A stretch of DNA of 64,000 nucleotides from a virus (Duplodnaviria; Caudoviricetes): the IMG/VR virus record IMGVR_UViG_3300032234_000392, positions 99,264 to 163,263 of that record; one strand, written 5' to 3'. Position 1 is the first letter of the stretch, and each line of letters opens with the position of its first letter. Of this stretch, positions 21,788 through 37,390 are shown one piece after another. The notes beneath the pieces were generated by a model. It was not told the DNA's origin. It ran no database searches and was given only the letters and a program-made list of their open reading frames with translations. A program made the position numbers and the translations under genes.

Positions 21788-22030
21788 TTATCTCCTGTTA
21801 AGTTCTGCCCACGTTAAAAATTGTTTGAAACCGTTGTACACAGCTTCTGCTTCTTTGTCATCCTGTGCAACTTTTACACCTCGGACCCAAAATCCATCAG
21901 GACCAATCTTCAACATTTCTGTAGCACCTGCATAACAGATAATATTGTTAGGTTCGGGCTCACGAAATTTATATTCAGTTCCCCAATTTTCAGTTGCGGA
22001 TTGTACTGCGTCAAAGTTGTAGTTAGACAT
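21788..22030 (-). CDS. hypothetical protein
   Basis: 80-aa ORF coupled to neighbours. Confidence 0.6.
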   Translation of the reverse strand: MSNYNFDAVQSATENWGTEYKFREPEPNNIICYAGATEMLKIGPDGFWVRGVKVAQDDKEAEAVYNGFKQFLTWAELNRR

Positions 22031-22872
22031 TATACCTCAAATGTAAAGTTAAAATCAAATTGATCGTTTTCGCCAGGGTAGCCATGCGGATTACACATCA
22101 CTCGAGTATCGCCAATTGTATAATCAAAGTTGTTGTGCATATGGCCGTGGGTCCAAGCTCGTATCTGTGGTCGATCGAGTATGAACTCGCTTAGGTCTGA
22201 CGAGTATCCACCATTCATTAGAGTGGCATCTTTGTAGATTTCATGTATGCTCAAATGACTTGGTGCGTGATGACTGCATACTACAATCTTGGCATCCTTA
22301 GGCAAATTTTCAATCACGGTTTTAAAGTAATCACGTGTCTTGGTAAACTCTATAACTGTACGCATTGGTAGAAATTTCTTAAAATTTTCACCGGCAATCC
22401 GAATCACCCGAAAGTCTGTCATACAGTGTTCAAGGTGATACTGAGTCATTGGATCACCCTTATTACAGTCTGTCCACATAGTACCGCCGATAAAGTGAAC
22501 ACCGTCAAGTTCCACGGTATCTCGATCTAGGAGATGTATGTTATGAATGTTTAGGTATCCAAGAGTTTCGCGAATAATACCAGCACTCTTATCAAACTTA
22601 CCATGATAGTGTTCATGGTTGCCCATAACGTAGATCACGTGTTTGAACTGAAAACTTACTCTTTGAAAAAAGTCTCTATAACGCATAGCACGTTTAGCAC
22701 GGCCGTAGCCATTGTCTGGAAGATCGCCCCAAGCAAGATTTACAGGCTGATTACGCAAATCGTCTGCCACAAGAATATCGCCAGACAATATAAGAACGTC
22801 TGCACCTGTGTCGTTTTTGATGTTGACATCTGCAAACTCTAGATGCAGATCAGACGCTAATTGGATTTTCAT
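22030..22872 (-). CDS. metallophosphoesterase
   Basis: SDLHLEF, GD, GNHE, HHAP, HGHMH, NPHGY. Confidence 0.9.
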   Translation of the reverse strand: MKIQLASDLHLEFADVNIKNDTGADVLILSGDILVADDLRNQPVNLAWGDLPDNGYGRAKRAMRYRDFFQRVSFQFKHVIYVMGNHEHYHGKFDKSAGIIRETLGYLNIHNIHLLDRDTVELDGVHFIGGTMWTDCNKGDPMTQYHLEHCMTDFRVIRIAGENFKKFLPMRTVIEFTKTRDYFKTVIENLPKDAKIVVCSHHAPSHLSIHEIYKDATLMNGGYSSDLSEFILDRPQIRAWTHGHMHNNFDYTIGDTRVMCNPHGYPGENDQFDFNFTFEV

Positions 22873-22940: not shown

Positions 22941-22964
22941 CACATATAATAGGAGCGGAGCGAA

Positions 22965-23246
22965 ATGGGCGAAATTTTCAAATTAATCGGCGAAGTAGGC
23001 TTTCCGATGGCTGCAGCATTGTGCGGTGGCTACTTTGTATATCTAACACTTAAATTGGTTTTGGGCTCTGTAATGAGTGCTGTGAAATCAATGGCTGGTA
23101 TTATTACCATGTTAGATAACCGTGTCAAAACCATGAACCACGATGTTATACGTATTGATGCTATTGTCAGCAACGCACTAGGACTAAAACCCGATGTAGA
23201 TCGTATTGCTCGTGCAGATGGCAAGAACGATGCAAGAAGGGATTAA
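22965..23246 (+). CDS. small membrane protein (N-terminal TM plus coiled coil)
   Basis: EVGFPMAAA TM segment; similar to ORF at 23818. Confidence 0.7.
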   Translation: MGEIFKLIGEVGFPMAAALCGGYFVYLTLKLVLGSVMSAVKSMAGIITMLDNRVKTMNHDVIRIDAIVSNALGLKPDVDRIARADGKNDARRD

Positions 23247-23248
23247 AA

Positions 23249-23440
23249 ATGTTATACTATGACTATACCTGGGATTTGAGTTCAAGGGGTATAATTTTAG
23301 ATGCAGAACTTAACACTGATAAACTAGGGTGGAGAGGTGGAGACTATTTTAAGTTCATCAATGTCAACGGTCAACAAATGTTGGTCAAAATAGACCCATT
23401 GGAAAAATTTATCATAGACGGAGCAGCTAAAAATGAGTAA
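23249..23440 (+). CDS. hypothetical protein
   Basis: 63-aa ORF in operon. Confidence 0.6.
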   Translation: MLYYDYTWDLSSRGIILDAELNTDKLGWRGGDYFKFINVNGQQMLVKIDPLEKFIIDGAAKNE

Positions 23441-23603
23441 ATGGAAGCCAGGCAAGTTGCCTAACAGCATTAGCGAGTACGGATTCAATCATCAAATTTG
23501 GTCAGATAAAGATCTAGCATTGATGGTTAGTATTGCACTTGCGGTTGGATTCTTTTTTGGATATATTTGTAGTTAAGCAGTAATACATTGTGGGAGCGAA
23601 AAA

Positions 23604-23807
23604 ATGTATGTAGATGGATACATGTTGTTTGCAATTTATTTTATTGCGGTGTTAGCATTAGCTGTTAGTGCGTATGCCCTTTGGTCTTTGGAAGAAATTA
23701 GACAGTATTATGCAAGAAAAAACAGTAAAAAAAATCCCAATGCTTGGGAACAGTATAACAGTAAACCACCAGTAATACCGACTCGCGGTAAAGGACACTG
23801 GGACTAA
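23604..23807 (+). CDS. small membrane protein
   Basis: hydrophobic N-terminus, GGGAGCGAA upstream. Confidence 0.6.
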   Translation: MYVDGYMLFAIYFIAVLALAVSAYALWSLEEIRQYYARKNSKKNPNAWEQYNSKPPVIPTRGKGHWD

Positions 23808-23817: not shown

Positions 23818-24117
23818 ATGGACGTAGTATCAATGATTAACAAATATGGCTTTCCAATTGTATCAGCAGTTGGTATGGGCTATATGATTTATTATGTATG
23901 GACTTGGGCCACAAAAGAAATTAAACCTGTGCTTAACGATGCTAACACAGTTCTTATCGCTCTTATCGATCGTATTCGTATGCTAGATAACGATCTAATT
24001 CGATTAACACAAAAGGTCAATGTTGTTCTTCACTTACGTGGCAAGACCATTGAGCGTGAGCGTGTTCATGCCGAGGAACAGATCAACGAACTCAAAGAAG
24101 AAACTAAGAAAAAATAA
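23818..24117 (+). CDS. small membrane protein related to ORF 22965
   Basis: KYGFPIVSA TM segment; shared MLDN/DxIR words. Confidence 0.7.
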   Translation: MDVVSMINKYGFPIVSAVGMGYMIYYVWTWATKEIKPVLNDANTVLIALIDRIRMLDNDLIRLTQKVNVVLHLRGKTIERERVHAEEQINELKEETKKK

Positions 24118-24277: not shown

Positions 24278-26320
24278 TTATTTTTCATGAGCTACGAATT
24301 CTCCATTCCAGTTATCTGGTAAATCTTGCTGTTTCATAAACTCGCAGCGTTCAATCCAAATTTTGTAATACTTGTCCATTTGTCCACCAAATGTGCCTTT
24401 CATCTTAGCGCACACAGCAGCAGCTTCATCAAACTTCTTGGCTTTGTATAGGGCATGCATCTTTAGGTGTTGTTCTCGATCTTTACTATAATCTTCACCA
24501 CGTGTTCGTATTACAGTATAAATTAAATCTGCCACAGTCTTGCCCTTAGGCTGTAAGTTATCTAACAACAAGTAGAAGAAATCATCCTTAGTACGGTTGT
24601 ATGTTTCAGCACCGATAATGGCTAGTACGCCATAGGCCTTACAACGTGCTTCTAAACGTGCCGCAGTACTAACCATGTCACCTAAGATGTCATAGCTGTG
24701 TCTATCAGTGCTTCCCATTTCACCAATAAAACCGATACCAGTGTTGCAACCCCAACCCATAGCCGCAGGTGGTAATCCTTGTGCTTCCATTAGTTTAGTA
24801 TATTCATCTACAGCATCTAGCATTTCTAAACCGACTTGAACAATAGTGCGAGCGTGATTAGGATCATCAATAGGAGCACCGTGTATGTGCATACTTGCAT
24901 CGCCCACGTACTTAATAACCATACCGTTGTTGTCCATGATAGGCTTTGAGATAGCATCCATATAGCCGTTCATGTACTTGCCTAGTCCGGCAACGTCATC
25001 TCCATAGTGTTCACCGATAGGAGTAAAGCCACGTAGGTCACTGAACATTACACTAACGTCTTTGCGTACACCACGCTTGATTAGGTCTGGATCTTTCTGT
25101 AGCATCTCTACTACTTCTTTAGAACAATATCCAGCAAACTGTTTCTTGATTGCTTGTTTTTGTAAGAACTCACTTACAAACTTAACGCCATAAGCATGAA
25201 GCATGACCAGAACAAGGCCGACCACAAGAGCAGTTGAGTCAAAGAGCCAACTAAACTGTGAGTAAGCATACGAGCCAGCGAATACACTAGACCCAATAAT
25301 AACAACACCTGAAATAATGCCAACATAGGTCCACCTTGTTAAAAATAATAGTAAGATGCCTGCAACTAAGAGTGCGGCAATTTCTGCATAGTCAGCATAC
25401 CATGGTCGCTCAATGTTGACATTGTTAAACATTGTGCCTAGAACTGCTGCCTGCACTTCATGAGGGAATACTGCACCTTTAGCTGTTGGTACAGGATTGC
25501 TAATACCAGCGGCAGTAGGTCCTACAATAACTACTGCACCTTCAAGTTTTTTTGGAAGATCTATCATAGACATAGATATAGATTGTTGACTCCAATCAAT
25601 CCACACTCTGCCTAGACTGTCTGTGGTAATTGGACCAAATGCAGGAATACGCATTTTGTCAACGCCAAGTTCATTCAGTTTAATCTGTGTAGTTGAATCT
25701 CCTGCTGCAAGTCTAAGAGCTTCCATAGCCAGACTTGGATACACAGTTCCATCTGCAGCTACTACTAGAGGCATACGACGGACAACACCGTCAACTTCTG
25801 GCATGGTATTAACAATGCCTACGCCCGCAGCACGATTTTCTAACAAAGGCACGTTGGAAATAACTCCGCCGTAGTTGACAATTTGATCTGAGAATTCAGA
25901 CTGTATTACTGCCGTGCTAGGTTTACGTGGTGAGTTTTTATTCTTATCAAAAGGTTGACTAGGCAATACTACAGGAAACTCGTTCATAGTCGCTGCTAGA
26001 GCACCATCGCCGCCTGTGCGATCTGTTTCAGCCATAAACACGTTAAGCACTACTAGTCCAGCACCACGTTTGTATAGATTTTCTACAAGATCAGCATAGA
26101 CATTTCTAGGCAATGGCCACTGACCATATTTGTCTAGACTGGCTTCATCTATGTTAAGTGTAATGATGTTGTTTTCTTGGGCTGCTTTGCTGGTAATAAG
26201 TGTGTCAAAATATCGCAATCTTACACTTTCTACAAAGCTAGGATCGGCAATTCTTATACCTGTTATAAGTGCCAATGTAATTAGGGCAGTCCACGGACTG
26301 AGTAATATTTTCTTTAGCAT
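24278..26320 (-). CDS. CHASE2-domain class III adenylate/guanylate cyclase
   Basis: IDEASL..GQWPLPR CHASE2, TM helices, FSDLRGFT, KYVGDA, GDMVSTAARLE. Confidence 0.93.
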   Translation of the reverse strand: MLKKILLSPWTALITLALITGIRIADPSFVESVRLRYFDTLITSKAAQENNIITLNIDEASLDKYGQWPLPRNVYADLVENLYKRGAGLVVLNVFMAETDRTGGDGALAATMNEFPVVLPSQPFDKNKNSPRKPSTAVIQSEFSDQIVNYGGVISNVPLLENRAAGVGIVNTMPEVDGVVRRMPLVVAADGTVYPSLAMEALRLAAGDSTTQIKLNELGVDKMRIPAFGPITTDSLGRVWIDWSQQSISMSMIDLPKKLEGAVVIVGPTAAGISNPVPTAKGAVFPHEVQAAVLGTMFNNVNIERPWYADYAEIAALLVAGILLLFLTRWTYVGIISGVVIIGSSVFAGSYAYSQFSWLFDSTALVVGLVLVMLHAYGVKFVSEFLQKQAIKKQFAGYCSKEVVEMLQKDPDLIKRGVRKDVSVMFSDLRGFTPIGEHYGDDVAGLGKYMNGYMDAISKPIMDNNGMVIKYVGDASMHIHGAPIDDPNHARTIVQVGLEMLDAVDEYTKLMEAQGLPPAAMGWGCNTGIGFIGEMGSTDRHSYDILGDMVSTAARLEARCKAYGVLAIIGAETYNRTKDDFFYLLLDNLQPKGKTVADLIYTVIRTRGEDYSKDREQHLKMHALYKAKKFDEAAAVCAKMKGTFGGQMDKYYKIWIERCEFMKQQDLPDNWNGEFVAHEK

Positions 26321-26334
26321 AAAGTATTTACCGT

Positions 26335-26358
26335 AAAAAAGCCCGCCGAAGCGGGCTT
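26335..26358 (-). terminator. intrinsic terminator between autotransporter and cyclase
   Basis: AAGCCCGC-TTCG-GCGGGC-TTTTTT. Confidence 0.8.
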
Positions 26359-26377
26359 ATACTAGTACTAAGTTTTG

Positions 26378-29257
26378 TTAAAAACCAACTGTATAGTTTA
26401 CGCCAACTGATGATATATTACCAAGCTGGTTTTGTTGTACTCCTACATTAGCACCAATACGTTGATTTTTAGTAACAGCGTACGATACACCTGTTCCTAC
26501 ACTTGCTGAAGTTTTCTTGTTAATCATCAATGGTGCTGAATAATTACCCATGTCGCTGGTAGAATTTAAAGAACCTGCTGATGAATCAACTTGTTGTATA
26601 ACTCCTAAACTTAGTGTTCCTGTTATTTTGTCAGTAAGTTTTTTAGTTAAATTTGCACCTGCTAATAGATCAGTTGATGTTTGTGTAGTCGAAGAATATG
26701 TTAAAGGAAACAATTCATTTTGCTCAGTGTATCCGTTGACCGTAAATGATGACTTTCGAACTCCAATATAAGGAGCAACACTAGTTGTACCATTTATTGG
26801 CAAAGTATATGATGTTTTAATCTGTGCTGCTTCACCTTTGACTCCTGTGTTGTCGCCACTGATATCATAATTTCCTCTACCTTGAATTGCAGATGCTGTG
26901 ATGCCTAAGCCAGTGCCATCGGAATTTTTATTCCATCCGACAAATCCACCAACTGCTGGATTGCCACTTTCGTATTTGACAGCGCCAACAGATGTTTGAT
27001 TTAATTGTTGACCTAAGAATAATCCAGCTCTCCAATTAGTATCAATACGTTTAGCTACAGTAACACCTGCAGTCTGTAGGTCACCTGTGCCTGCTTTGCT
27101 TTGTCCGTAGTTAACTCCAATACATCCGCCCTTCTCACCAAACAATGTGCAATCACTACCTAGACTATTAATCATCGATCCAGTAGCTAAAGAATTCATG
27201 CTAGATAAATTGTTAGCTAGATTGTTAACATTAGCCTGTACAATTGTGCCATCAGGCATTACCCAAATTTGAACACCAGTCGGTGTATAACGTAATACTC
27301 CTACACCGTTATAACTGCTAAATGTTCCAGACACACCGTTGCCTGTTAGAACATTATATTTTCCTGTAGTATACGGATTTCCAACCATTGTTAATGTACC
27401 ATCAATTGTAGCAGGACCTGTTGATGTAATTACATTGCCGTATGGTAATGTTGTCGCCCCTGTACCGGTTTGTGTATATGATCCTACGGTTATTGAATTT
27501 GTAGCAAACGTACCAGAGTTAGTTAAACTACCGATTGTTCCTGTGTTTGTAAATGTACCAGTATTGTTAACTGTACCAACAGTGCCGTCGTTAACAAATG
27601 TTCCATTGTTTGTACCGTTAGCCATTGTGCCTACGTTGTTAACAGTACTGTTGTTTAACCAATCATTAGTAGTACCAACGTTGTTCAGTATACCATTGTT
27701 TGTATATAGACCGCTCACAACTCCAGTACTGTAGTTGTTAAATGTGCTGGTAGTATTTACTGCTCCTAACACTGTTCCGTGGTTTTGAAAAGTACCGTGT
27801 GCTTCTTCATTGTTGATGCTACCAATAGTGCCGTTGTTGTTTACAATACCGCCATTGTAGGTAACACTAGTAATTGTGCCGTTGTTGTTAATAATGTGAT
27901 TGTTATAGGCCAATTGGCTAACTGTACCGCCAGCATTGTTATTAAACGTACCCATGTTACTTAGAGCACCGGTGTTGCCTGCGTTGTTAAATGTTCCAAC
28001 GTTAGATACTGTACCAACAGTTGCACCTGTGCTGTTATTAAATGTACCATAGTTAGTACCATTGCCCATTATACCAGCATTGTTTAGAACTGCGGTATTA
28101 CCGTCGCCGTTAAAGCCGTTGATCCAATTACCTGTTCTGCCTGTTGCTGAATTGGTAAGTGTACCTAAGTTTGTTAATTGATTTGATGAGCTGATGTTGC
28201 TGTTGTTGATAACTGTAGCACCATTATTAATAGTTGTAGGACCTGTGTAGGTATATGTACCGTTTAATGATGTGCTACCGCCCGAACCAGTGTTAGCAAA
28301 CGTCCAACCACCTGCTCCGCTCACTGAACCAGTTAGGCTTAGTGTTTGACCGTTGTTGTCAACTGTCATACCTAGGGCATTCAACACCATATTGTTGCTA
28401 ATTTCTGTTGTCCCTGTGGCAGCCTGTAGTGTACCACCGTTGCCAGTGAATGTTCCTGCAGCCATTGTATCACTAACCACAACTTGATTAGTGTTAGTTG
28501 CGCTGAATGTAGTTGGTGCCGGGGGAGGTGGAGGAGTTGAGTTGCCGCCGCCTGCTGCGCCAACACCGTTGTCACTAATAGTACCACCTACAGTTCCAGC
28601 AACAATACCACGAATTATCTGTTCTAAGAAATCTTCGTTGTTGGCATCATAGCTCCAACCTTGGGTCCAGTTAATATCAGCAACAACAATAACAGTACCG
28701 TTGTAATCAACTCCTAGATCGCCTGCATTACCAATCCACATTTTAGCAGTTGCCGCACCGTTAGCATCTTGTGAAAGTGTTCTTCCGCCTGCACTAGTAA
28801 TAATTGCCGCTGCAGCATAGTCTACGGTTGCACCGCCAGTGAAATAGGTAGCATTACCAGTTTGACCGTTTGCAGCAAACCCACCAACTGAAATTGTGCC
28901 GCCGCCTAACGAACTAGTAAATGCACTAATACTATTATTTCTTATAGCAAAGCCACCGTGCTCGCCTGATAGATATAAGTAGCCTTGGTTCTTCAAAAAG
29001 GTATCATACAAGGCCATGTCGTTGGCGGATAGTGCTATGTTATAACGCATATCCCAAACTTGTTGATATCCTGTTAGGCTTGTGGGACCCGCTGATCCAG
29101 CCTGATATGTCACGGTGTGCCCCGCAGCCTCTAATTCTGTTTTAACAGAAACATGGGAATCCCCTTCTCCGCCAATGATTAATACGTTGTCTGCCCATGC
29201 GGCAGAGGATAATATTGATGCCGCAATAGTGGCAAGGATTTTCTTTTTAAAGTTCAT
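26378..29257 (-). CDS. autotransporter-like outer-membrane protein with Asn/Gly-rich beta-helix passenger
   Basis: signal peptide, PPPPP linker, TYTGPTTINNG repeat, NNxGT repeats, beta-barrel-like C-terminus ending in F. Confidence 0.75.
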   Translation of the reverse strand: MNFKKKILATIAASILSSAAWADNVLIIGGEGDSHVSVKTELEAAGHTVTYQAGSAGPTSLTGYQQVWDMRYNIALSANDMALYDTFLKNQGYLYLSGEHGGFAIRNNSISAFTSSLGGGTISVGGFAANGQTGNATYFTGGATVDYAAAAIITSAGGRTLSQDANGAATAKMWIGNAGDLGVDYNGTVIVVADINWTQGWSYDANNEDFLEQIIRGIVAGTVGGTISDNGVGAAGGGNSTPPPPPAPTTFSATNTNQVVVSDTMAAGTFTGNGGTLQAATGTTEISNNMVLNALGMTVDNNGQTLSLTGSVSGAGGWTFANTGSGGSTSLNGTYTYTGPTTINNGATVINNSNISSSNQLTNLGTLTNSATGRTGNWINGFNGDGNTAVLNNAGIMGNGTNYGTFNNSTGATVGTVSNVGTFNNAGNTGALSNMGTFNNNAGGTVSQLAYNNHIINNNGTITSVTYNGGIVNNNGTIGSINNEEAHGTFQNHGTVLGAVNTTSTFNNYSTGVVSGLYTNNGILNNVGTTNDWLNNSTVNNVGTMANGTNNGTFVNDGTVGTVNNTGTFTNTGTIGSLTNSGTFATNSITVGSYTQTGTGATTLPYGNVITSTGPATIDGTLTMVGNPYTTGKYNVLTGNGVSGTFSSYNGVGVLRYTPTGVQIWVMPDGTIVQANVNNLANNLSSMNSLATGSMINSLGSDCTLFGEKGGCIGVNYGQSKAGTGDLQTAGVTVAKRIDTNWRAGLFLGQQLNQTSVGAVKYESGNPAVGGFVGWNKNSDGTGLGITASAIQGRGNYDISGDNTGVKGEAAQIKTSYTLPINGTTSVAPYIGVRKSSFTVNGYTEQNELFPLTYSSTTQTSTDLLAGANLTKKLTDKITGTLSLGVIQQVDSSAGSLNSTSDMGNYSAPLMINKKTSASVGTGVSYAVTKNQRIGANVGVQQNQLGNISSVGVNYTVGF

Positions 29258-29325
29258 ACCGATTTCGCTCCCGGTTATTATGATACAGTATTTAGAGAGT
29301 ATTTGCTCTAAGTTTAATACTCAGA

Positions 29326-30474
29326 TTACTGCCCTTGTTGAACAGTAATAGTACCGCAGCCGCCTGCAGTAGAACAGGTGTGATTAATAGAATAGAACTG
29401 CTGTGCAGATCCGCTTTGCGTAAGATTTAATCCTGTTTGATTTCCACTCAATGAAATGTTAGCCATATGGTTAGCAGAACCTTGTTGTAAAACATCTACA
29501 GTTTTATTGCCGCCGCTGACCGCAAGATTTAGATAATGATTACCCGAATCTCTCTGCCGTACCGTAATTGCGTTATTATTGTCATTGACCGTGGCAAAAA
29601 TTCCTTTACCTCCACCTGTACTCTGCTGTGTAAGATTTACTGTATTACTGTTACCTGTAATATCAAGTTCGATATAATTTACCTGGGTTGAATTATTACC
29701 AGATTGATTAACCGTAACAGCATTATTACTGCCGTTGCCTATGTACTGTAGATAGTTTTGATGTGTTCCACTCTGATTAACGATAATGGTATTTGCATTG
29801 CCTATCTGTTCGATGCTGACCTGACTATCACTAGTAGTCCTACTAGTAAATGTCTGTACTCGAGAGGTGTGAGCAGGGTTGGCATTAAACGAACTACTGC
29901 TACCTCCACAACATAATACTGGTGCTGGTGGTGCAAAGAATGAAGCAGCAGTAGCCAGTGCAGTACTAGGAACAATCTGCCACGAACCATTTATAAACCA
30001 CCAAAAGTTTACCATCTGTCCGCCCCCGTTTTCGTAATACATTATTTCTACAGGCACAGGACCTGCGGATAGTGTAATAGGACCACTTTGTCTAAAATCG
30101 CCGCCACTTTCAATCCAACTGTTGACTACGGATACATTATTAATTTTAATACGAATACCATCATCGGCTTGTCCGCCAAAGTGGTATGTGCCAGCTGTGG
30201 GTATGTTGATAAAACCGTGGAAGCGAATTATAAATCCATCACTACGAGTAGGAACACTTCCTCCGCTGCTAGTAGTTAATCCTACAGTACTTACGGTTCC
30301 AGTACTTAATAGTGTGCGATTAGTAATATTGCCATTGGCATCTTGTGTGTATGTTGGCATAGCGCCACCGGCAAGATAATTTTGATAGTTAAGCCCTGCT
30401 GTTTGTGCTTCGATGTCTTGACTATGCACACTCAAACAAAGAGTTAATAAAAATAAGGCAAATAGTCTTTTCAT
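29326..30474 (-). CDS. secreted PA14-domain protein with C-terminal curlin-like repeats
   Basis: signal peptide, ADDGIRIKIN..YYENGGG (PA14), then IEQIGNAN/QSGNN/QQGSAN repeats. Confidence 0.75.
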   Translation of the reverse strand: MKRLFALFLLTLCLSVHSQDIEAQTAGLNYQNYLAGGAMPTYTQDANGNITNRTLLSTGTVSTVGLTTSSGGSVPTRSDGFIIRFHGFINIPTAGTYHFGGQADDGIRIKINNVSVVNSWIESGGDFRQSGPITLSAGPVPVEIMYYENGGGQMVNFWWFINGSWQIVPSTALATAASFFAPPAPVLCCGGSSSSFNANPAHTSRVQTFTSRTTSDSQVSIEQIGNANTIIVNQSGTHQNYLQYIGNGSNNAVTVNQSGNNSTQVNYIELDITGNSNTVNLTQQSTGGGKGIFATVNDNNNAITVRQRDSGNHYLNLAVSGGNKTVDVLQQGSANHMANISLSGNQTGLNLTQSGSAQQFYSINHTCSTAGGCGTITVQQGQ

Positions 30475-31571
30475 TGCGGTCTCTTCAGCACACCTGAATT
30501 TTGTTTGATAGTCACAACATTACCGTTAGGATCGCCACTGCCAATTATAATTGTATCTGTTTGATCGTCGTGTGTGATTGAAATAGAAGTATTTGATGCA
30601 TACCCTAGAGTTTTAACTTCGGCATAGTGGTCTTCGTTCTTGCGAAACGCCACTCCTCGTCCGCGACTCTGTATATCAGCACCTGAGGGATTTTCCCAGT
30701 TAACACAGATATTGGTTGCAGGATTACAGCCTTTGGCACCCGTGGCAAAAGTAAAAGGTAGAACTTCTGCTGGTTTTTGTTCTTCTCTGGCTTTTTCTAT
30801 ACGCTGCGCCATCTGACGCTGCGCTTCTGCTTCTAGTTCTTCTAGTTCTTGTTCTCTTTTACTTTTGCCTGCGGCAGCTATGGCACGCTGTACCTCAGGA
30901 GGACGAACTAGAATTAAATTGTTGTTGATTTTACTTTCAATAGTATTCATAATCACAGGGGGAGTAGGCATTATCGAATTACTCATTACATAGGTAGCTT
31001 CAAATGCCTTGTCTAACTCTACCGTACCTGCATTAGTAGTGACTTCGATTTTTCCAACCTTGCAGCGTTGTTCATCCATTTCAAATTGCTTTTGTTCACT
31101 TTCTTCTTTGCAACTCGGTATTAGCACAATAAGACTCTGCCCAGCTTCGTCAACAGTCATGGTAAAATCAGTGCCTCGCACTGCTATACTGGCAGTAGGT
31201 GTTTTAACATTTACTCTCTGTGGATTGTTTTTGGCAATTTGCCCAGAGGTATATCTCACGGTACCCATGGCTGCTTTGATAGCCAGCTTGCCTGCATCTG
31301 ATTTTTTAGGATCAAAGACAAAATCGTCGATTAATAATTTCGAGTTTTCAGTGATACGGACTTTGGTGTCGTCTTTGAACTTGATATTACTTACGCATGA
31401 GCCGGTAACGTAGGTATCCATAGATTCAACAGTCGCACCTTTTTGTCCATTCAGCTTGGTCTTGCCTCTCTGTATTTCACAGGCCGAGCCTCGATTATCC
31501 AACACTACACCAATGCTAGCAGAAGCCGTTAATGTCCAAAACATTAATGCTACCGCAAGTATTGTTTTCAT
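30471..31571 (-). CDS. FecR-domain protein
   Basis: IKFKDDTKVRITENSKL, VKTPTASIAVRGTDF. Confidence 0.85.
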   Translation of the reverse strand: MKTILAVALMFWTLTASASIGVVLDNRGSACEIQRGKTKLNGQKGATVESMDTYVTGSCVSNIKFKDDTKVRITENSKLLIDDFVFDPKKSDAGKLAIKAAMGTVRYTSGQIAKNNPQRVNVKTPTASIAVRGTDFTMTVDEAGQSLIVLIPSCKEESEQKQFEMDEQRCKVGKIEVTTNAGTVELDKAFEATYVMSNSIMPTPPVIMNTIESKINNNLILVRPPEVQRAIAAAGKSKREQELEELEAEAQRQMAQRIEKAREEQKPAEVLPFTFATGAKGCNPATNICVNWENPSGADIQSRGRGVAFRKNEDHYAEVKTLGYASNTSISITHDDQTDTIIIGSGDPNGNVVTIKQNSGVLKRPQ

Positions 31572-31574
31572 CGT

Positions 31575-32396
31575 TTACCTTGCGATAGCTGTTATAGGAT
31601 TAACAATACTGCCACTGTTAGTACTGCGAACAGTAATGGTATTATTATTTCCATCTGTATTAATGTTAATGGTATTATTGTTAGAACCCTGTTGCTGTGT
31701 AGTAATACTGTTAAAATCACCTGCAGTGTTTAACACCAATGTCTGTCTACCTGTATCAGCTTGCTGAATATTAATTACGTTGTTGCTACCGTCGATAGTG
31801 TTATTAATACTGCTTAGAGCACCGGTAGTAGTAGTATCTGCTGTTACTTGGTTGCTGTTTCCTGTGATAGTAGTTGTAGAAGTAAACTGTGTTGAATTTA
31901 CATTCTGTATGATCATATTACTGTCACCGGTGATAGTTTCTGTGATATTAACGTTAGTTCCACTATTAACCGCAGTACTATTATTCACAGTCAATCTTGT
32001 TTGATTGTTGTCACCTGTAACTGTGCTGGTATAGGCATTTCTATTTCCGGTGATACTATACTGAGCAGAATTACTATTACCTGTCTGCTGTATATTCACA
32101 GTATTGCTATTACCGGACACTGTTCCATAGTTTGATGCACTTGGGGCTGCCGGAGTCAATGTGGTAATGCCCGATGCATCAACAGTCGTTGCCGATTGAT
32201 TAGTAATACCTCCAACCGAGTTTGTTCCGCCTACCTGCTGAATAGAAATAGTATTACTACTACCGATCTGTTCAATGTAGACTTTGTTTTCGCCTGTGCT
32301 CTGAGCATAGGTTCCCGATAATGGCATTGCAGCCATTACCAGAATTGTGAGTAATTTTCTCGACAACTCACCAGCGCCTTTGTTTCTTTTGATCAT
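31575..32396 (-). CDS. curlin-like repeat protein (CsgA/CsgB-like)
   Basis: signal peptide, IEQIGSSNTISIQQ, QQTGNSNSA, QQQGSNN repeats. Confidence 0.75.
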   Translation of the reverse strand: MIKRNKGAGELSRKLLTILVMAAMPLSGTYAQSTGENKVYIEQIGSSNTISIQQVGGTNSVGGITNQSATTVDASGITTLTPAAPSASNYGTVSGNSNTVNIQQTGNSNSAQYSITGNRNAYTSTVTGDNNQTRLTVNNSTAVNSGTNVNITETITGDSNMIIQNVNSTQFTSTTTITGNSNQVTADTTTTGALSSINNTIDGSNNVINIQQADTGRQTLVLNTAGDFNSITTQQQGSNNNTININTDGNNNTITVRSTNSGSIVNPITAIAR

Positions 32397-32428
32397 ATGA
32401 TCGCTCCCTGGTACATATATTATTGTTA

Positions 32429-33751
32429 TTATTGTACCTTAATATTTTTCTTTGCTATCCATCCATCCTTTCCGTCAACCCTGACGAAATAGTATTCTCC
32501 ACTGGCGTTTAGTATTTCTACTCTCGTGCCTGGTTTAACACTTGCTACTTTATTACTGCTTAAATCTTTACCGGTTCTAATATTACTCCACTCTGTAATT
32601 GTTGCTGTCCCTTGTTTTTCCGCTGGTCCCTCTTGAATTACAGTTGGTCTTACCCAGCCGCCTCTGCCTTGAAGGTCTTTGACTAACACCCAATCGTCTT
32701 CACGATTATGTATGGTTAATTCTGTGCCTGCTACAAACTGCCAAGTTTTTTGACTGCGTTCATCTTTTTCTCGATAAATGAAACTAGTTTCCTTTAGATA
32801 GAATTTTTTAGATTCTACTACTTGTGGTGCTTGTTTTTTAGATACTGGTACATTAGATTGTGTGTTCTCTTTGGGCGATTGCTCTGCTGGTTTTGCTGCC
32901 GGCGGCGGAACAATCGCTGGAATAGGTCTAATATCATTTTTAACATCCTCCTTAAAACTCCAATGTCCTTTGCGGGCACCTTCATTTATAGTTGCTACTA
33001 CTGCTGCCTGTATGGCCATACTAACAGCTTTGTTGATACTTTCATTTATGCTAGCGCCAGTTTCTGCTTCAACTGCTTGTGTGCCGCTGTCAACAAATTT
33101 TAACACACCTAACTTGTCCATGTAGCTTAAGACAGTTTTTGTAATAGTTACAGAAGTTAATATTTCACCTGATGCTACACTCACTGTTCTTAAACTGACT
33201 GTCACTGTATCACTTTGATATTGTGTCTGTGCACCGATACCAAATATTCTCATACCTGATCCGCCTGTGAGTGTGTTGGAATCATAGCCAACAATACCGC
33301 CTTCGATAATCATACCTGCAAACAATAACGGCGGCAACGGCTTAGCATCACGTCCTTGATATTGTTCGCGCATTTGACGAATCATTTGACGCTCTTTGAT
33401 TAGGTTCTCTAATCCTACACGTTCTATTACTGTGAACCACCGCGCATCTCCTACATCCTGTAATGACTTAACCAAGTAGGCATCTGCACCTTGTGTTACC
33501 GCTGAACTCAATGATGCAATTAGTGGTACTGACTTACGTTGTCCAGTTAGATCTTTGAACCCATAGACTGCTACTGTAATGGGACCACCTGCTGGAGGTC
33601 TAATTGTTTCACTTTGTTTCTTTAGATAGACATTTTGTTCAACCTTAGGCTCGTCAAACTGATTGCCAGTTAATTTTTCACGGATTGCTGAGCTGGTTGC
33701 GCATCCTGTTAGCACTGTTATTGCTGCCAAGGACACTAATGTTTTTATCAT
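32429..33751 (-). CDS. csgG: curli secretion channel CsgG with C-terminal SH3-like domains
   Basis: lipobox LTGC, VAVYGFKDLTGQRK, AVTQGA, VIERVGLENLIKERQ, IIEGGIVGYDSN. Confidence 0.9.
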   Translation of the reverse strand: MIKTLVSLAAITVLTGCATSSAIREKLTGNQFDEPKVEQNVYLKKQSETIRPPAGGPITVAVYGFKDLTGQRKSVPLIASLSSAVTQGADAYLVKSLQDVGDARWFTVIERVGLENLIKERQMIRQMREQYQGRDAKPLPPLLFAGMIIEGGIVGYDSNTLTGGSGMRIFGIGAQTQYQSDTVTVSLRTVSVASGEILTSVTITKTVLSYMDKLGVLKFVDSGTQAVEAETGASINESINKAVSMAIQAAVVATINEGARKGHWSFKEDVKNDIRPIPAIVPPPAAKPAEQSPKENTQSNVPVSKKQAPQVVESKKFYLKETSFIYREKDERSQKTWQFVAGTELTIHNREDDWVLVKDLQGRGGWVRPTVIQEGPAEKQGTATITEWSNIRTGKDLSSNKVASVKPGTRVEILNASGEYYFVRVDGKDGWIAKKNIKVQ

Positions 33752-33760
33752 TTGATGTCC

Positions 33761-34240
33761 TTAAAAGTAAAATGACCCGGCAGGCACCTTCATTGTTGTA
33801 ATTTGAGTAGGATTACTAAGATTCTGTATGTTGATAATAATCATACCAGAATCGCTGCCGCCGCCTAACGACCACTCTATTTTGTTGCCGCCTATATCTG
33901 GAATACTGCCACATACTATGCCTGCAGTAGTACAGGTAGCACCTTCACCAAACATACTGTCAGTTAACTGTTTGGCCAACTGCGAATATATTCTTGATTC
34001 TAAATTGGCTATAAATCTTGCTGTGGGAGTATTGGCAGCATCACGCTCTGCTTGAGCTTTTAATGCGTCTGCTGCTGCTTTGTTTTTTTCTTTTTGTTGA
34101 TCTTCTAACTGTTTGATTGTTAGAACGTGAGAGCTAAATCCAATGCCTGAAAAGGACGGACTATTAAAATTATGTGTTAACTCTGCACTATTCACTCCAG
34201 AGCTAACCAAGATGGTGCATATTAATAATGCATACTTCAT
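33761..34240 (-). CDS. csgF: curli assembly protein CsgF-like
   Basis: signal peptide then ELTHNFNSPSFSG; FIANLESRIYSQL; adjacent to csgG. Confidence 0.8.
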   Translation of the reverse strand: MKYALLICTILVSSGVNSAELTHNFNSPSFSGIGFSSHVLTIKQLEDQQKEKNKAAADALKAQAERDAANTPTARFIANLESRIYSQLAKQLTDSMFGEGATCTTAGIVCGSIPDIGGNKIEWSLGGGSDSGMIIINIQNLSNPTQITTMKVPAGSFYF

Positions 34241-34332
34241 ACTATTCGCTCCCGGTAATCGGTATTAGTATTTAACCAAGGAAAGAATTAGTTATATGAC
34301 AGTATTAATTTGTTCTAGATTAAAAGAGCAGT

Positions 34333-35817
34333 TTACTTAATTGCAAAACTCAAAGGTGCAATAGGCATTCTTGTAGCCATGTAGTTATTGTCTGCTACCA
34401 TTTGGAATGTGCCGGTAAACATTGGAGGATAAATTACTTCAAATTTAGAAAATGCTGCAGCTTCTCCAGAAGACTTCACTGTAGTTTTTACCTGAATCAT
34501 ATTTGATCTTTCAAGTATTGATCTAAATAAATCTCCTACATTTTTATCTTGATTTACTGTGTTAGCAATTTTTTTAGCAACACAGGCCATCATATGAAAA
34601 CCTAAATTATAAGCAGGGTCTTCAAACTTAGCCCCTTTAACTTCACTTAGTGTATAAAGATTAGGAGTTATCAATCCTTTCTTTACTGCTTGATTAGGAG
34701 GAATACGGATACTCTTCCCCATAAGATCAGCAATCATTCGAGCTTCACTATCAGATATAAATTTAAAACGATCAACACCAAGAATTAATGGCCCGTTCAC
34801 CCCTTTATTTTTACGTTTCCAATATCGATTTTCAGGATTTGCTATTACTTTAAGTATTTCAAAAATAGGTACAAATTTTTTATTTTCAAAAAGGTCTTGA
34901 TACTTTTCTGGAGTTTTATTAACTGCATCAACTAATCCTGTAATACTAGCTGCTGCTCCTCCTTTTTTATCCTTTGAACTAACTCTCAAACTGTTGTTTT
35001 TATCTAATCTAATATAACTGTCATACAGTTTTTCATCTCCGGCACTAGGATATAAAACTTGAGATAAACTCTTCCAGGTAAGACCTAATGGCTTTAATAA
35101 ATTTTCTTCTGCGGATGCATAATCTCCGCTAACTAAGTTGCCTGTAATTAGTGCTATAGGTGCTGCTGTTTCACCAAAATCAATTTCTAGACTAGATTCG
35201 TACTTTGCCATTCCTTGTACTGGTGTTGCTGCTCCAGCGGCTATATTTTTGATTAGCTCAACCAGTCCGGTTTTTAATTCTTCGTCAAGATCTGTTCTAC
35301 CATTAATTTTTGTCTGTACTGAATTTGGAATTTGTCTAAAGTTTAACCAGCTATCCGGAGTTATTACATCTTTTGGTTTAAGTTTTAGTGTAGCTCGTTG
35401 TGCAGTTTTTCCTTGGGCACCATAACCAAATGTTTTTTTAAATTCAGCGTTTGTTTGTTTTACAGGAGCAGCACCTTCTCCTGGTTTTTTAACTAATTTA
35501 ACAAAAGAAATAAGAGAATTTGTTTCAAGGTCTTTCCATACACTAACTAATGCTGCTTTAGCAGTTTTTGGATTTCCGGTAAATTGTACATTTTTTAAAT
35601 CGACACCGTTTTGAGACATATATTGCTGTAAACTTTTATCTAATTCTTCTTCGGTTTCAAAAGTACCAGCCGACGGCAACATAACCGCACTTTTCAGACT
35701 AATTTCTTTATTAGTTTCAGCATTTTTAAATTTAACTTCGGCGCCTTGACTAACTTCCTGGGCCCTTCGAAAAATTCCGCCTTGCGATTCGTTAATGTTA
35801 AATTCGTAAAATCTCAT
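34333..35817 (-). CDS. large hypothetical protein, probably virion-associated
   Basis: MRFYEF..NES leader; YD..RVSSK segment is PD-(D/E)xK-like. Confidence 0.55.
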   Translation of the reverse strand: MRFYEFNINESQGGIFRRAQEVSQGAEVKFKNAETNKEISLKSAVMLPSAGTFETEEELDKSLQQYMSQNGVDLKNVQFTGNPKTAKAALVSVWKDLETNSLISFVKLVKKPGEGAAPVKQTNAEFKKTFGYGAQGKTAQRATLKLKPKDVITPDSWLNFRQIPNSVQTKINGRTDLDEELKTGLVELIKNIAAGAATPVQGMAKYESSLEIDFGETAAPIALITGNLVSGDYASAEENLLKPLGLTWKSLSQVLYPSAGDEKLYDSYIRLDKNNSLRVSSKDKKGGAAASITGLVDAVNKTPEKYQDLFENKKFVPIFEILKVIANPENRYWKRKNKGVNGPLILGVDRFKFISDSEARMIADLMGKSIRIPPNQAVKKGLITPNLYTLSEVKGAKFEDPAYNLGFHMMACVAKKIANTVNQDKNVGDLFRSILERSNMIQVKTTVKSSGEAAAFSKFEVIYPPMFTGTFQMVADNNYMATRMPIAPLSFAIK

Positions 35818-35825
35818 ACGATTAT

Positions 35826-36521
35826 TTATCGGATTTCAGGGAACAGGCACTCTTGTATAAAATGCTGTACATCGTCCTCAGATAGCCCTAAACTAACCAT
35901 TACACGCGGTGTATGCGGATTACACTTTTGATTCTGTGCGTAGTAGTTTTGATCCCAAGTAGTATCTGCGGTAGTATTATTAGTTTCAGCAACTGTGTTT
36001 AGATAGTGTTCTATGGTGGTTTTTGCTAGATCCGTAATCTGCTGTAGTTCTTCTGGATCTTGTACATTACCCGCAGCAACCATACTAGGACTAAAAATAT
36101 TAGTAGCCCATTCCGGAAGAGCACGTTCTTTACGCCATTCTAATTTGCTGACTTCTTCAGCGAACCACTGCATCATAGGATGATCGGGATCGCCTGCTTT
36201 TGAATAATCGTGAAAACAGCCAGTGATCTTATTCTTACCAGCTATAACATCAAATCCGTAAATTGGAGCAGGATTATGTGTGTGAGGGAAGATGCAACAG
36301 TGCATCATCCACAATCCTTTGGTTAGCCTAGCATCAACGACATCAACGTGGGCCCGACGATACTTATCGCTAGACCATACACGATTAACCCAACCAGGTT
36401 GATTAAAACGATCCATCCCAGGCTCGAAGACTTCGACTCCTGTTTTTTCAAAGGATTCCTCAAGTAGAGTTTGGATCTCAATTAGAGTGTCCCATACTTT
36501 ACTCTCCTGCATAGAGGTCAC
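35826..36521 (-). CDS. pcyX: ferredoxin-dependent bilin reductase (PcyX/PcyA-like)
   Basis: RRAHVDVVD, WMMHCCIFP, PIYGFDVIAG, FHDYS, LPEWA..IFS, QKCNPHT. Confidence 0.82.
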   Translation of the reverse strand: MTSMQESKVWDTLIEIQTLLEESFEKTGVEVFEPGMDRFNQPGWVNRVWSSDKYRRAHVDVVDARLTKGLWMMHCCIFPHTHNPAPIYGFDVIAGKNKITGCFHDYSKAGDPDHPMMQWFAEEVSKLEWRKERALPEWATNIFSPSMVAAGNVQDPEELQQITDLAKTTIEHYLNTVAETNNTTADTTWDQNYYAQNQKCNPHTPRVMVSLGLSEDDVQHFIQECLFPEIR

Positions 36522-37340: not shown

Positions 37341-37390
37341 CTGCTCTCCTGTTATGTTGGGGGAGTTTCCTCCCCCAGTACTATATTATA

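What the first reader, a model, noticed from the sequence alone, without database searches (positions are those of the whole stretch)
24278..34240. Phage trans-envelope module: CsgF-CsgG-curlin-FecR-PA14/curlin-autotransporter-CHASE2 cyclase
Seen: seven co-oriented genes covering an outer-membrane secretion pore, two amyloid-like curlin-repeat proteins (one with a PA14 domain), a FecR protein, a beta-barrel adhesin-like protein and an inner-membrane class III cyclase. Known: CsgG/CsgF secrete and anchor curli; FecR domains relay outer-membrane signals; PA14 often binds sugars; csgF/G homologs are reported in some aquatic T4-like phages without a defined function. Inference: the infected cell displays a fibre or receptor whose engagement is relayed to cAMP synthesis. 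Possible roles include sensing superinfection or cell contact, lysis timing, or aggregating new hosts. The Lys in KYVGD suggests ATP as substrate.
Basis: partly seen in the sequence, partly recalled or inferred. Interest (0 to 1): 0.82.

Follow-up and report, generated by a model that had tools for sequence, protein, structure and literature searches.

The report
Phage curli pore plus cyclase module
A giant lake phage carries a published type of gene set, known from marine phages, that joins a curli-type outer-membrane secretion pore and sticky fibre proteins to a membrane sensor likely to make cyclic AMP; this copy adds some new parts, and its function is still untested.

Summary
Seven co-oriented minus-strand genes at 24278-34240 encode:
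- CsgF
- a CsgG lipoprotein
- a curlin-repeat protein
- a secreted FecR-domain protein
- a PA14-head/curlin-tail protein
- an autotransporter
- a CHASE2/class III cyclase

The module is real and strongly conserved. All 53 related loci with at least 8 kb on both sides of the cyclase carry the core.

It is not new as a kind. The CsgF-CsgG-CsgA/B-FecR-CsgA/B-adenylate cyclase module was described in marine pelagiphages (PMC9599517). It is also annotated in Melnitz and HTVC008M. This scan has flagged it 276 times.

What this copy adds:
- It sits in a freshwater giant-phage lineage.
- An autotransporter occupies the variable slot.
- CsgG carries two SH3b domains.
- A cyclase subclade has Asp and Ser in place of Thr/Ser and Asn.

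What I add beyond the papers:
- FecR with a CHASE2 cyclase is a pre-existing bacterial signalling pair (the S. meliloti NsrA/CyaK system works alike).
- Two small "GFPI" membrane proteins are universal members of the module.
- The secretion block and the cyclase block have separate histories.
- One bacterial copy is followed by a Pycsar-type membrane effector.

The parts
33761..34240 (-). CsgF homologue, 159 aa, with a signal peptide. The mature N-terminus reads FNSPSFSG, which resembles the E. coli CsgF plug motif as I recall it; this was not aligned here.
   Evidence: Pfam CsgF E 3.3e-08. phrog_35372. Sequence.
32429..33751 (-). CsgG outer-membrane lipoprotein (lipobox LTGC) with a Pro-rich linker and two C-terminal SH3b domains. 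Opposite the E. coli segment KPYPASNF, which on my recollection holds the constriction residues Tyr/Asn/Phe, this protein reads Val/Ser/Leu.
   Evidence: Pfam CsgG 1.9e-48, SH3_3 and SH3_4. Aligns to solved E. coli CsgG at E 9e-49. An SH3b tail is present in 28 of 62 freshwater-type loci and 0 of 36 metagenome loci.
31575..32396 (-). Curlin-repeat protein 1 (CsgA/B-like), 273 aa, with a signal peptide and an 11/22-residue period.
   Evidence: Pfam Curlin_rpt 22.3 bits against a cut-off of 20.7. Periodicity. Conserved position in relatives.
30471..31571 (-). Secreted FecR-domain protein, 366 aa, with a signal peptide and neither a TM segment nor a lipobox. It has an N-terminal FecR beta-sandwich, a long helix of about 50 residues and a small C-terminal beta domain.
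   Evidence: Pfam FecR 1.8e-10. AlphaFold model pLDDT 84.7. Foldseek to the PupR cell-surface signalling domain 6ovk at E 2e-4. Residues 22-92 resemble the MpIBP retention domain 5ix9.
29326..30474 (-). PA14 head plus C-terminal curlin-type beta-solenoid, 382 aa, with a signal peptide. In relatives the head varies and the tail is conserved.
   Evidence: Pfam PA14 2.3e-11. Model residues 215-382 at pLDDT above 90. VIA Z 15.0 to CsgA 8c50 and 14.0 to CsgA fibril 8enq. Head/tail survey.
26378..29257 (-). Type Va autotransporter-like protein, 959 aa: signal peptide, N-terminal domain, Pro linker, Asn/Gly/Thr-rich passenger, C-terminal barrel ending in Phe.
   Evidence: Relatives carry PF03797. Atlas structural match TM 0.69 to an autotransporter beta-domain cluster. 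It occupies the same slot in a 369-kb phage record, LR796187.1.
26335..26356 (-). GC-rich hairpin followed by a T-run between the autotransporter and the cyclase, then TAAATAC 3 nt before the cyclase start codon.
   Evidence: Read from the sequence. TAAATAC positions. The consensus scan did not list it, so it remains a candidate.
24278..26320 (-). Inner-membrane CHASE2 / 3-TM / class III nucleotide cyclase, 680 aa. The residues are Asp428, Lys470, Asp474, Asp544 and Arg555, with Ser551 in place of the usual Asn.
   Evidence: Pfam CHASE2 3.2e-40 and Guanylate_cyc 6.1e-14. Aligned to solved cyclases. Motif census. The catalytic domain has a median 94% identity across 61 loci.
23818..24117 (+). 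'GFPI' small membrane protein, subfamily A, 99 aa: one TM segment plus a coiled coil.
   Evidence: phrog_18771 E 2.4e-31. Alignment A2. Present in 53 of 53 loci with full flanks. Lies directly upstream of csgF in marine contigs.
22965..23246 (+). 'GFPI' small membrane protein, subfamily B, 93 aa. It is a paralogue of the former and is preceded by ATAAATAC and GGAGCGA.
   Evidence: phrog_18771 E 2.4e-29. Alignment A2. Upstream motifs.

Best explanation
This is a freshwater giant-phage copy of the published phage 'type VIII secretion plus FecR plus adenylate cyclase' module.

**Shown here**
- The phage encodes a CsgG/CsgF outer-membrane pore.
- It encodes two Sec-exported curlin-type beta-solenoid proteins. 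One carries a variable lectin-like head, here PA14.
- It encodes a self-exporting autotransporter.
- It encodes a soluble periplasmic FecR-domain protein with a long helix.
- It encodes an inner-membrane CHASE2 class III cyclase whose catalytic domain is under very strong conservation.
- Two small membrane proteins always accompany these genes.

**Inferred**
- Late in infection the cell exports curlin subunits through CsgG/CsgF.
- They form a short surface fibre or patch that displays sugar-binding heads. The autotransporter adds a second displayed head.
- The periplasmic FecR protein acts as co-sensor for the CHASE2 domain, as FecR-type partners do for bacterial CHASE2 proteins.
- Some state of the envelope or the secretion apparatus (load, contact or damage) then sets the rate of cAMP synthesis in the cytoplasm.
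- The cAMP would act on host receptors or on the small membrane proteins, because the phage genomes searched encode no canonical cNMP-binding domain.

My confidence in what the parts are is about 0.9. My confidence in the sensing-relay mechanism as stated is about 0.4.
For: **Domain identities:**

**Conservation of the whole set**
- 250 viral and 593 metagenome relatives of the cyclase were found.
- All 53 loci with at least 8 kb on both sides carry CsgG, CsgF, FecR, a curlin protein and a GFPI protein.
- The same order occurs in Melnitz and HTVC008M.
- The published description is PMC9599517, which also reports metatranscriptome expression.

**FecR with CHASE2 as a bacterial pair**
- In the 72 loci from L092 on, a FecR-domain sequence lies within about 3 kb of the cyclase in 39, and a same-strand upstream FecR-family ORF cluster holds 33. 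None has csgG.
- Papers: PMC9239204, PMC5192318 and PMC13001267.

**Variable heads on a conserved curlin tail:**. Lectin-type heads are PA14 and F5/8 type C on a related autotransporter.

**Selection on the cyclase**
- The catalytic domain has a median 94% identity, against 32-55% for the secretion block.
- Both metal Asp residues, the Lys/Asp pair and the Arg are kept.

**No phage-encoded receptor:** no cNMP_binding domain was found in this record, in two complete relatives of 364 and 372 kb, or in Melnitz and HTVC008M.
Against: - No experiment shows fibres. Buchholz et al. saw no clumping of Melnitz-infected cells (PMC9004378).
- The CsgG residues opposite the E. coli constriction segment differ (V/S/L). 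No CsgE was found in this record. Secretion may therefore differ from curli.
- The transition-state Asn is Ser in this clade. By my recollection, the equivalent change lowers activity in mammalian cyclase; this was not checked here.
- FecR co-varies with the csg block (rho 0.7-0.84) and not with the CHASE2 domain (rho 0.05). This fits linkage across a recombination hot spot, but it gives no support to a co-adapted FecR-CHASE2 interface.
- One relative (L249) has the cyclase split into three ORFs.
- The signal, the product and the receptor are all unknown.
Confidence: 0.5

Rival explanations
1. The module is chiefly a fibre factory. Infected cells make curli-like amyloid that glues neighbouring host cells ('sibling capture') or forms a barrier against competing phages. 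FecR and the cyclase only regulate secretion.
For: Proposed in PMC7029224 and PMC9599517. The set of pore, CsgF and two curlin-type subunits is complete. The lectin-like heads could bind neighbouring cells.
Against: No clumping was seen in Melnitz cultures (PMC9004378). The cyclase is the best-conserved part, at a median 94% in the catalytic domain, which is odd for a mere accessory regulator. No transcription factor of the CsgD kind was seen among the module genes.
Confidence: 0.2
2. CsgG/CsgF is a re-purposed gated pore (pinholin- or secretin-like) that times lysis. The curlin-like proteins are plugs or gates rather than fibres.
For: Proposed for Melnitz (PMC9004378). The residues opposite the E. 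coli constriction segment differ. Two small single-TM proteins of holin-like size always accompany the module. Late-promoter-like motifs lie upstream.
Against: An outer-membrane pore does not depolarise the inner membrane. The curlin tails are conserved, secreted beta-solenoids with variable heads, which is a display architecture. That paper states csgA/B are absent, whereas they are present.
Confidence: 0.12
3. The module remodels or masks the cell surface to exclude superinfecting phages or to stop progeny sticking to debris. The lectin heads bind the host's own receptor glycans.
For: The slot between FecR and the cyclase also holds glycosyltransferase and other envelope-related genes in relatives. 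The heads are hypervariable, like receptor-binding proteins. The module lies in the hypervariable island that PMC7029224 links to host recognition.
Against: It does not explain the need for a highly conserved cyclase. There is no direct evidence of glycan binding.
Confidence: 0.1
4. The cyclase interferes with host cyclic-nucleotide immunity or metabolism (a counter-defence or takeover function). Its link to the csg genes reflects shared ancestry only.
For: The catalytic domain matches a Pycsar cyclase model at E 1.6e-13. A bacterial homologue sits next to a PycTM effector. No phage-encoded receptor was found.
Against: Any class III cyclase matches those models. The sensor domain and the 53-of-53 linkage to exported proteins argue for regulated rather than constitutive output.
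Confidence: 0.06

Closest known systems
Viral T8SS (curli) module of marine pelagiphages: 'HK'-CsgF-CsgG-CsgA/B-FecR-CsgA/B-adenylate cyclase (PMC9599517). It is also annotated in Pelagibacter phage HTVC008M gp014-019 and Methylophilales phage Melnitz gp99-104.
   Same: The genes and their order are the same. Identities to Melnitz (tblastn best stretch) are cyclase 46%, CsgG 45% and FecR 44%. The two small upstream genes that the paper calls HK correspond in position to the GFPI pair found here.
   Different: - The host phage is a freshwater giant phage; related contigs are 270-372 kb.
- An autotransporter sits in the slot.
- CsgG carries two SH3b domains.
- The second curlin protein has a PA14 head.
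- The GFPI genes lie downstream of the cyclase on the other strand.
- The cyclase is K/D/S rather than K/S/N.
- The HK label is not supported by my searches.
Bacterial FecR-partner plus CHASE2 receptor cassettes: S. meliloti NsrA with CyaK/CyaD1/CyaD2; the Campylobacterota FecR outer-membrane protein with a CHASE2 cyclase; the Burkholderiales LysM-FecR protein with a CHASE2 histidine kinase.
   Same: A FecR-domain gene lies directly upstream of a gene with the layout TM-CHASE2-3TM-output. In S. meliloti the CHASE2 cyclases raise cAMP on sensing a plant protein through the outer-membrane barrel NsrA (PMC13001267). The Campylobacterota and Burkholderiales clusters are genomic associations (PMC9239204, PMC5192318).
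   Different: - The phage FecR protein is soluble and has no barrel.
- The outer-membrane partner would be CsgG/CsgF, which none of the bacterial loci from L092 on carries.
- The bacterial cyclases are only 25-30% identical and are K/T/N or K/S/N.
E. coli curli system (CsgA/B/E/F/G)
   Same: There is a CsgG lipoprotein (E 9e-49 to solved CsgG), a CsgF, and secreted subunits of roughly 22-23-residue Gln/Asn-rich repeats that model as a CsgA-like solenoid.
   Different: - No CsgE was found in this record, and no CsgC or CsgD was seen among the module genes.
- The residues opposite the E. coli constriction segment differ.
- One subunit carries a large folded head.
- The system is coupled to a cyclase.
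Pycsar / 'Pucsar' cyclase-effector defence pairs
   Same: There is a class III cyclase fold. In the one bacterial copy (L086), a PycTM-type effector follows the cyclase (Pfam 8.8e-25, PADLOC 9.6e-18).
   Different: The phage record has no PycTM. Pycsar cyclases as I know them are cytoplasmic and lack CHASE2. The adjacency was seen only once.

Membership tests
Phage T8SS-FecR-adenylate cyclase module (PMC9599517) | Co-located CsgF, CsgG, CsgA/B-like, FecR, second CsgA/B-like and adenylate cyclase genes in a phage genome | tested here: met
   The same order occurs in Melnitz and HTVC008M and in 53 of 53 full-flank loci.
Phage T8SS-FecR-adenylate cyclase module (PMC9599517) | One or two small genes (called HK in the paper) adjacent to the module | tested here: met
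   The GFPI A and B genes lie at 23818-24117 and 22965-23246. Here they are downstream of the cyclase on the other strand. A kinase identity is not supported.
Curli type VIII secretion system | CsgG-family outer-membrane lipoprotein | tested here: met
   Pfam 165 bits. Lipobox LTGC. Aligns to solved CsgG.
Curli type VIII secretion system | CsgG constriction residues Tyr51/Asn55/Phe56 (numbering from my recollection of the E. coli protein) | tested here: not met
   The alignment to 6lqh shows Val/Ser/Leu opposite the Tyr, Asn and Phe of the E. coli segment KPYPASNF, with a one-residue insertion.
Curli type VIII secretion system | CsgF | tested here: met
   Pfam 34.2 bits against a cut-off of 25.8.
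Curli type VIII secretion system | Secreted curlin-repeat subunits | tested here: met
   Curlin_rpt is above the cut-off for curlin-1. For the PA14 protein the tail has a 23-residue period, a solenoid model and Z 14-15 to solved CsgA. Amyloid formation itself was not tested.
Curli type VIII secretion system | Periplasmic adaptor CsgE | tested here: not met
   No PF10627 match in the 163-kb record, which is only 46% complete. None was seen among the module genes.
FecR-partner / CHASE2 receptor cassette | FecR-domain gene next to a gene with TM-CHASE2-TM-output architecture | tested here: met
.
FecR-partner / CHASE2 receptor cassette | The FecR partner is itself an outer-membrane protein (Campylobacterota type; NsrA is an outer-membrane barrel) | tested here: not met
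   The 366-aa protein has a signal peptide, a beta-sandwich, a long helix and a small beta domain, with no barrel.
FecR-partner / CHASE2 receptor cassette | Signal-dependent cAMP synthesis | not testable with these tools
   This needs enzyme and infection assays.
Class III adenylate cyclase | Two metal-binding Asp residues, the substrate pair Lys + Asp/Thr/Ser, and the transition-state Arg | tested here: met
   FSDLRGFT, KYVGD, YDILG and AAR were aligned to solved cyclases.
Class III adenylate cyclase | Transition-state Asn | tested here: not met
   It is Ser in GDMVSTAAR. This holds in all 80 IMG/VR loci and in Melnitz, whereas Asn is kept in HTVC008M, in every other-marine and bacterial homologue where the motif could be read.
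Type Va autotransporter | C-terminal beta-barrel translocator (PF03797) | tested here: inconclusive
   The protein itself gives no Pfam hit. Relatives at 33-96% identity carry PF03797. The Atlas structural match is TM 0.69. The protein ends in Phe.
Pycsar-type cyclase-effector system | Effector gene (PycTM or PycTIR) next to the cyclase | tested here: not met
   No PycTM match above the cut-off in the record. It is present only in the bacterial locus L086.

The most novel reading that the evidence does not exclude
The module may be a surface-coupled cyclic-nucleotide switch whose output acts on membrane effectors.

In the one bacterial copy (L086), the CsgF-CsgG-curlin-FecR-CHASE2 cyclase set is followed by a Pycsar-type PycTM effector. 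That would make it an envelope-sensing cell-death or defence device.

In phages the PycTM position is taken functionally by the two ever-present 'GFPI' single-TM proteins. One of them co-varies weakly with the cyclase membrane region. Contact or damage at the surface, such as superinfection, would then tune membrane permeabilisation and hence lysis timing, through a cNMP made by an unusual Asp/Ser-type cyclase.
Probability: 0.1. Interest if true: 0.85.

Novelty: new variant of a known kind. Interest (0 to 1): 0.45.

Why it matters
This module is among the most widespread unexplained gene sets in aquatic phages. It was found at all 65 GOV2.0 ocean stations (PMC9599517), and here it appears in hundreds of lake-phage contigs as well. 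The known pelagiphage hosts lack curli genes.

Recognising FecR plus a CHASE2 cyclase as a bacterial outside-in signalling pair turns 'curli genes of unknown use' into a concrete hypothesis: the infected cell senses something at its envelope and answers with a second messenger.

The hypothesis is testable. Two cultured phage-host pairs exist, HTVC008M with SAR11 and Melnitz with OM43. They differ in the cyclase signature (K/S/N against K/D/S).

Tried and rejected
- A megablast of the region against the phage collection found nothing. Only protein-level searches worked.
- I looked for support for the published 'histidine kinase' label of the small upstream genes. Pfam, NCBIfam, PADLOC and a profile search of the PDB gave only coiled-coil noise.
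- I looked for a phage-encoded cNMP receptor (PF00027) in this record, in two complete relatives and in the two cultured phages. None was found.
- I looked for a recurrent effector downstream of bacterial CHASE2 cyclases. Nothing was conserved: patatin occurred in 3 loci and PycTM in 1.
- I searched 301 genomes of the order of the L086 MAG for its FecR protein. Only L086 itself matched closely.
- Apparent exceptions to the linkage turned out to be a convergent layout or contig ends. L042 shows the convergent layout. In L045, L046 and L078 the flank simply ends. L061-L063 stay unresolved, with no csg genes within 6 kb upstream or 10 kb downstream.
- I first noted HTVC008M as carrying the Asn-to-Ser change. 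One search shows that it keeps Asn.
- Foldseek on the PA14-curlin model gave no significant hit. The wide VIA search was needed.
- Sigma-70-type promoter and terminator scans were at the level expected by chance.
- TAAATAC is not enriched overall, with 14 sites against about 18 expected. It does sit 3-72 nt before starts in 10 of the 14 cases, so expression timing stays unproven.

Full report
**What is there**

The window is the last 64 kb of a 163-kb IMG/VR virus record that CheckV rates 46% complete. Its neighbours are phage-type genes: ribonucleotide reductase, tail-fibre-like proteins and a full-length match to phrog_22485.

At 24278-34240, seven minus-strand ORFs follow one another with short gaps or overlaps. 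Six match Pfam above the curated cut-offs:
- CsgF.
- CsgG, with two extra C-terminal SH3b domains.
- A curlin-repeat protein.
- A FecR-domain protein.
- A PA14 protein.
- A CHASE2 plus class III cyclase protein.

The sequences show Sec signal peptides on all the exported parts. CsgG has the lipobox LTGC. The cyclase has one TM segment, a periplasmic CHASE2 domain, three TM segments and then the catalytic domain.

**The two parts that Pfam did not settle**

*The tail of the PA14 protein.* Several lines support a curlin-type fold:
- It has a 23-residue period.
- It has invariant Gln/Gly/Asn columns in 61 relatives.
- It weakly matches the NCBIfam CsgA model.
- It models with pLDDT above 90 as a regular strand-turn-strand solenoid.
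- A search of 48,161 PDB representatives puts Pontibacter CsgA (Z 15.0) and the E. coli CsgA fibril (Z 14.0) among the five best hits, with the highest sequence identities of the top rows. Generic beta-helices score similarly, so this is support and not proof.

*The 959-aa protein.* It has no profile hit of its own. It does have 126 relatives, many of which carry PF03797. Two are named autotransporter beta-domain proteins of uncultured phages. The ESM Atlas model aligns to an autotransporter beta-domain cluster at TM 0.69.

**How conserved the module is**

The cyclase has 250 relatives in IMG/VR and 593 in JGI metagenomes. Among the loci fetched, all 53 with at least 8 kb on both sides of the cyclase also carry CsgG, CsgF, FecR, a curlin protein and a small membrane protein.

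Apparent exceptions are loci with a convergent layout or loci cut by a contig end. One small lineage (L061-L063) stays unresolved.

Melnitz (gp99-104) and HTVC008M (gp014-019) have the same order, and it is annotated as such in GenBank.

**What was already known**

- Zaragoza-Solas et al. (PMC7029224) reported csgF and csgG in pelagimyophages. They proposed uptake or 'sibling capture'.
- Buchholz et al. (PMC9004378) modelled the Melnitz pore and proposed a lysis-timing pore. They stated that csgA/B are missing and saw no clumping.
- PMC9599517 (mSystems 2022) describes the whole module in podo- and myo-pelagiphages: one or two 'HK' genes, CsgF, CsgG, CsgA/B, FecR, a second CsgA/B and an adenylate cyclase. 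It includes trees, ocean-wide counts and transcript evidence.

So the kind is known. The same scan has flagged it 276 times in at least 178 genomes.

**What this copy adds**

1. It belongs to a freshwater lineage with contigs of 270-372 kb. PMC7029224 found no curli operon in the freshwater SAR11 myophages.
2. An autotransporter sits between the second curlin gene and the cyclase. It occupies the same slot in the 369-kb record LR796187.1.
3. CsgG carries SH3b domains in 28 of 62 freshwater-type loci and in none of 36 metagenome loci. The SH3b domains could, by inference, bind peptidoglycan.
4. The gene after FecR always has a conserved curlin tail, but its head ranges from 0 to about 650 residues. 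PA14 is the head in 12 of 55 cases. A related autotransporter carries an F5/8 type C head.
5. The slot also collects unrelated genes, such as a glycosyltransferase, a metallophosphoesterase and a RimK-like ligase. It therefore behaves as a hypervariable island.

**The FecR-CHASE2 link**

The published papers read FecR as an iron regulator. They say FecR and the cyclase are not part of bacterial T8SS operons. The CHASE2 domain is not mentioned in them: PMC9599517 was absent from both full-text searches that required the term CHASE2.

A scan of species-representative genomes returned the best 80 of 511 relatives of the cyclase. In the 72 loci from L092 on, a FecR-domain sequence lies within about 3 kb of the cyclase in 39. 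A same-strand upstream FecR-family ORF cluster holds 33. None of these loci has csgG.

The literature agrees:
- Campylobacterota cluster a FecR outer-membrane protein with CHASE2 cyclases (PMC9239204).
- Burkholderiales pair a LysM-FecR protein with a CHASE2 kinase (PMC5192318).
- In S. meliloti the CHASE2 cyclases raise cAMP when a plant protein is sensed through the outer-membrane barrel NsrA (PMC13001267).

The phage FecR protein models as follows:
- A PupR-like signalling beta-sandwich (6ovk, E 2e-4).
- A helix of about 50 residues.
- A small beta domain.

Its first 70 residues also resemble the periplasmic retention domain of the MpIBP adhesin. This architecture fits a periplasm-spanning adaptor, but no interaction was tested.

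**The cyclase**

Both metal Asp residues, Lys470, the Asp of YDILG and the Arg are present. The transition-state Asn is Ser.

The census across homologues:

| Group | Signature |
|---|---|
| All 80 IMG/VR loci and Melnitz | K/D/S |
| HTVC008M and every other marine contig where the motif could be read | K/S/N |
| Bacterial homologues | K/T/N or K/S/N |

In a maximum-likelihood tree the K/D/S sequences form one clade with 100% SH-aLRT support. That clade holds the freshwater phages and Melnitz.

The catalytic domain is far better conserved (median 94% identity to the window) than CHASE2 (68%) or the secretion block (32-55%). This argues for a working enzyme, perhaps with altered kinetics.

**Two blocks with separate histories**

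Across 61 loci, identities of CsgF, CsgG, curlin-1, FecR and the curlin tail rise and fall together (Spearman 0.64-0.84). They do not track any part of the cyclase (-0.25 to 0.21 for the FecR domain and the csg proteins). The small membrane protein A tracks the cyclase TM region weakly (0.41).

The simplest reading is recombination within the variable slot. The measure is crude, because it uses identity to a single reference and the loci are related.

**The small membrane proteins**

Two paralogous families (phrog_18771) share the motif GFP(I/V), one TM segment and a coiled coil. They lie directly upstream of csgF in marine contigs and in the cultured phages. In the freshwater lineage they lie downstream of the cyclase.

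They are probably the 'HK' genes of PMC9599517. I found no kinase similarity, and at 93-99 residues they cannot hold a kinase domain.

**A bacterial copy**

Locus L086 comes from a Caulobacteraceae MAG contig. The relevant stretch has 52-55% GC between 61-67% GC flanks. Its neighbours are glycosyltransferases, an S9 peptidase and a TonB-dependent receptor.

It carries CsgF, CsgG, two curlin-like genes, FecR and a K/T/N CHASE2 cyclase. A protein follows that matches PycTM, the Pycsar membrane effector (Pfam 8.8e-25, PADLOC 9.6e-18).

Its cyclase nests inside the phage clade, so transfer from a phage is likely. The adjacency was seen only once and the contig is from a MAG. I therefore treat it as a lead.

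**Verdict**

The parts are secure.

The most likely working is this. The infected cell exports curlin-type proteins with sugar-binding heads, plus an autotransporter, through or beside a CsgG/CsgF pore. A periplasmic FecR protein couples some envelope state to a CHASE2 cyclase that makes cAMP.

No cNMP-binding domain was found in this record, in two complete relatives or in the two cultured phages. The target is therefore the host's or of a new type.

Expression timing is only hinted at. ATAAATAC lies before GFPI-B, and TAAATAC lies 27-30 nt before csgF and the autotransporter and 3 nt before the cyclase.

Noticed in passing
window 22957-22963, 23593-23599, 29265-29271, 32401-32407, 34246-34252: GGAGCGA occurs 7 times in 64 kb. 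Five of these lie a few bases before start codons of module genes: csgF, curlin-1, the autotransporter, GFPI-B and a 67-aa TM ORF. In 80 relatives, 83 of 171 occurrences sit at such positions. This may be a shared translational control site.
   Followed up: partly
window 22030-22872 (-): A metallophosphoesterase of 280 aa shows a weak partial match to cAMP phosphodiesterase CpdA (E 0.0012, far below the cut-off) and a PADLOC PDC-S10 hit. A homologue lies 2-4 kb downstream of the cyclase in 25 related loci. A different metallophosphoesterase sits inside the slot in 8 loci. It is a candidate cNMP phosphodiesterase.
   Followed up: partly
L086:5998-13090 (Caulobacteraceae MAG contig CANGEH010000001.1): A bacterial copy of the whole module is followed by a PycTM (Pycsar-type) membrane effector. 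It lies in a lower-GC island. Its cyclase nests within the phage clade.
   Followed up: partly
L249:6435-8493: In a close relative (a 354-kb contig whose autotransporter is 78% identical), the cyclase is called as three separate ORFs (CHASE2, a 156-aa piece and Guanylate_cyc). Two unrelated genes are inserted before it. This may be decay or a sequencing error.
   Followed up: no
window 23249-23440 and 23604-23807 (+): Two further small ORFs lie between the GFPI paralogues: a 63-aa soluble one and a 67-aa one with a strong TM segment. They have no family hits. The second has the GGAGCGA motif.
   Followed up: no
window 34333-39786 and L250/L251:1-4711: The upstream synteny is shared with the 369-kb phage record LR796187.1: Hsp70, Hsp20, ClpS, heme oxygenase, bilin reductase and a roughly 500-aa ORF, then csgF. 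The module therefore has a fixed genomic address in this lineage.
   Followed up: no
cyclase tree: The cyclase of the marine OM43 phage Melnitz nests inside the freshwater giant-phage clade. Another first-stage note reports a pqqA gene in this window. Together these hint at a methylotroph (Methylophilaceae-like) host for the lake phages.
   Followed up: no
L094:5452-9991 (Tagaea MAG): Upstream of a bacterial CHASE2 cyclase lies a 1050-aa FecR protein with a weak fHbp-C-like end. Before it is a TPR/Slam-like (surface lipoprotein assembly modifier) gene. In some bacteria a type XI-like translocon may therefore take the place that CsgG/F holds in phages.
   Followed up: no
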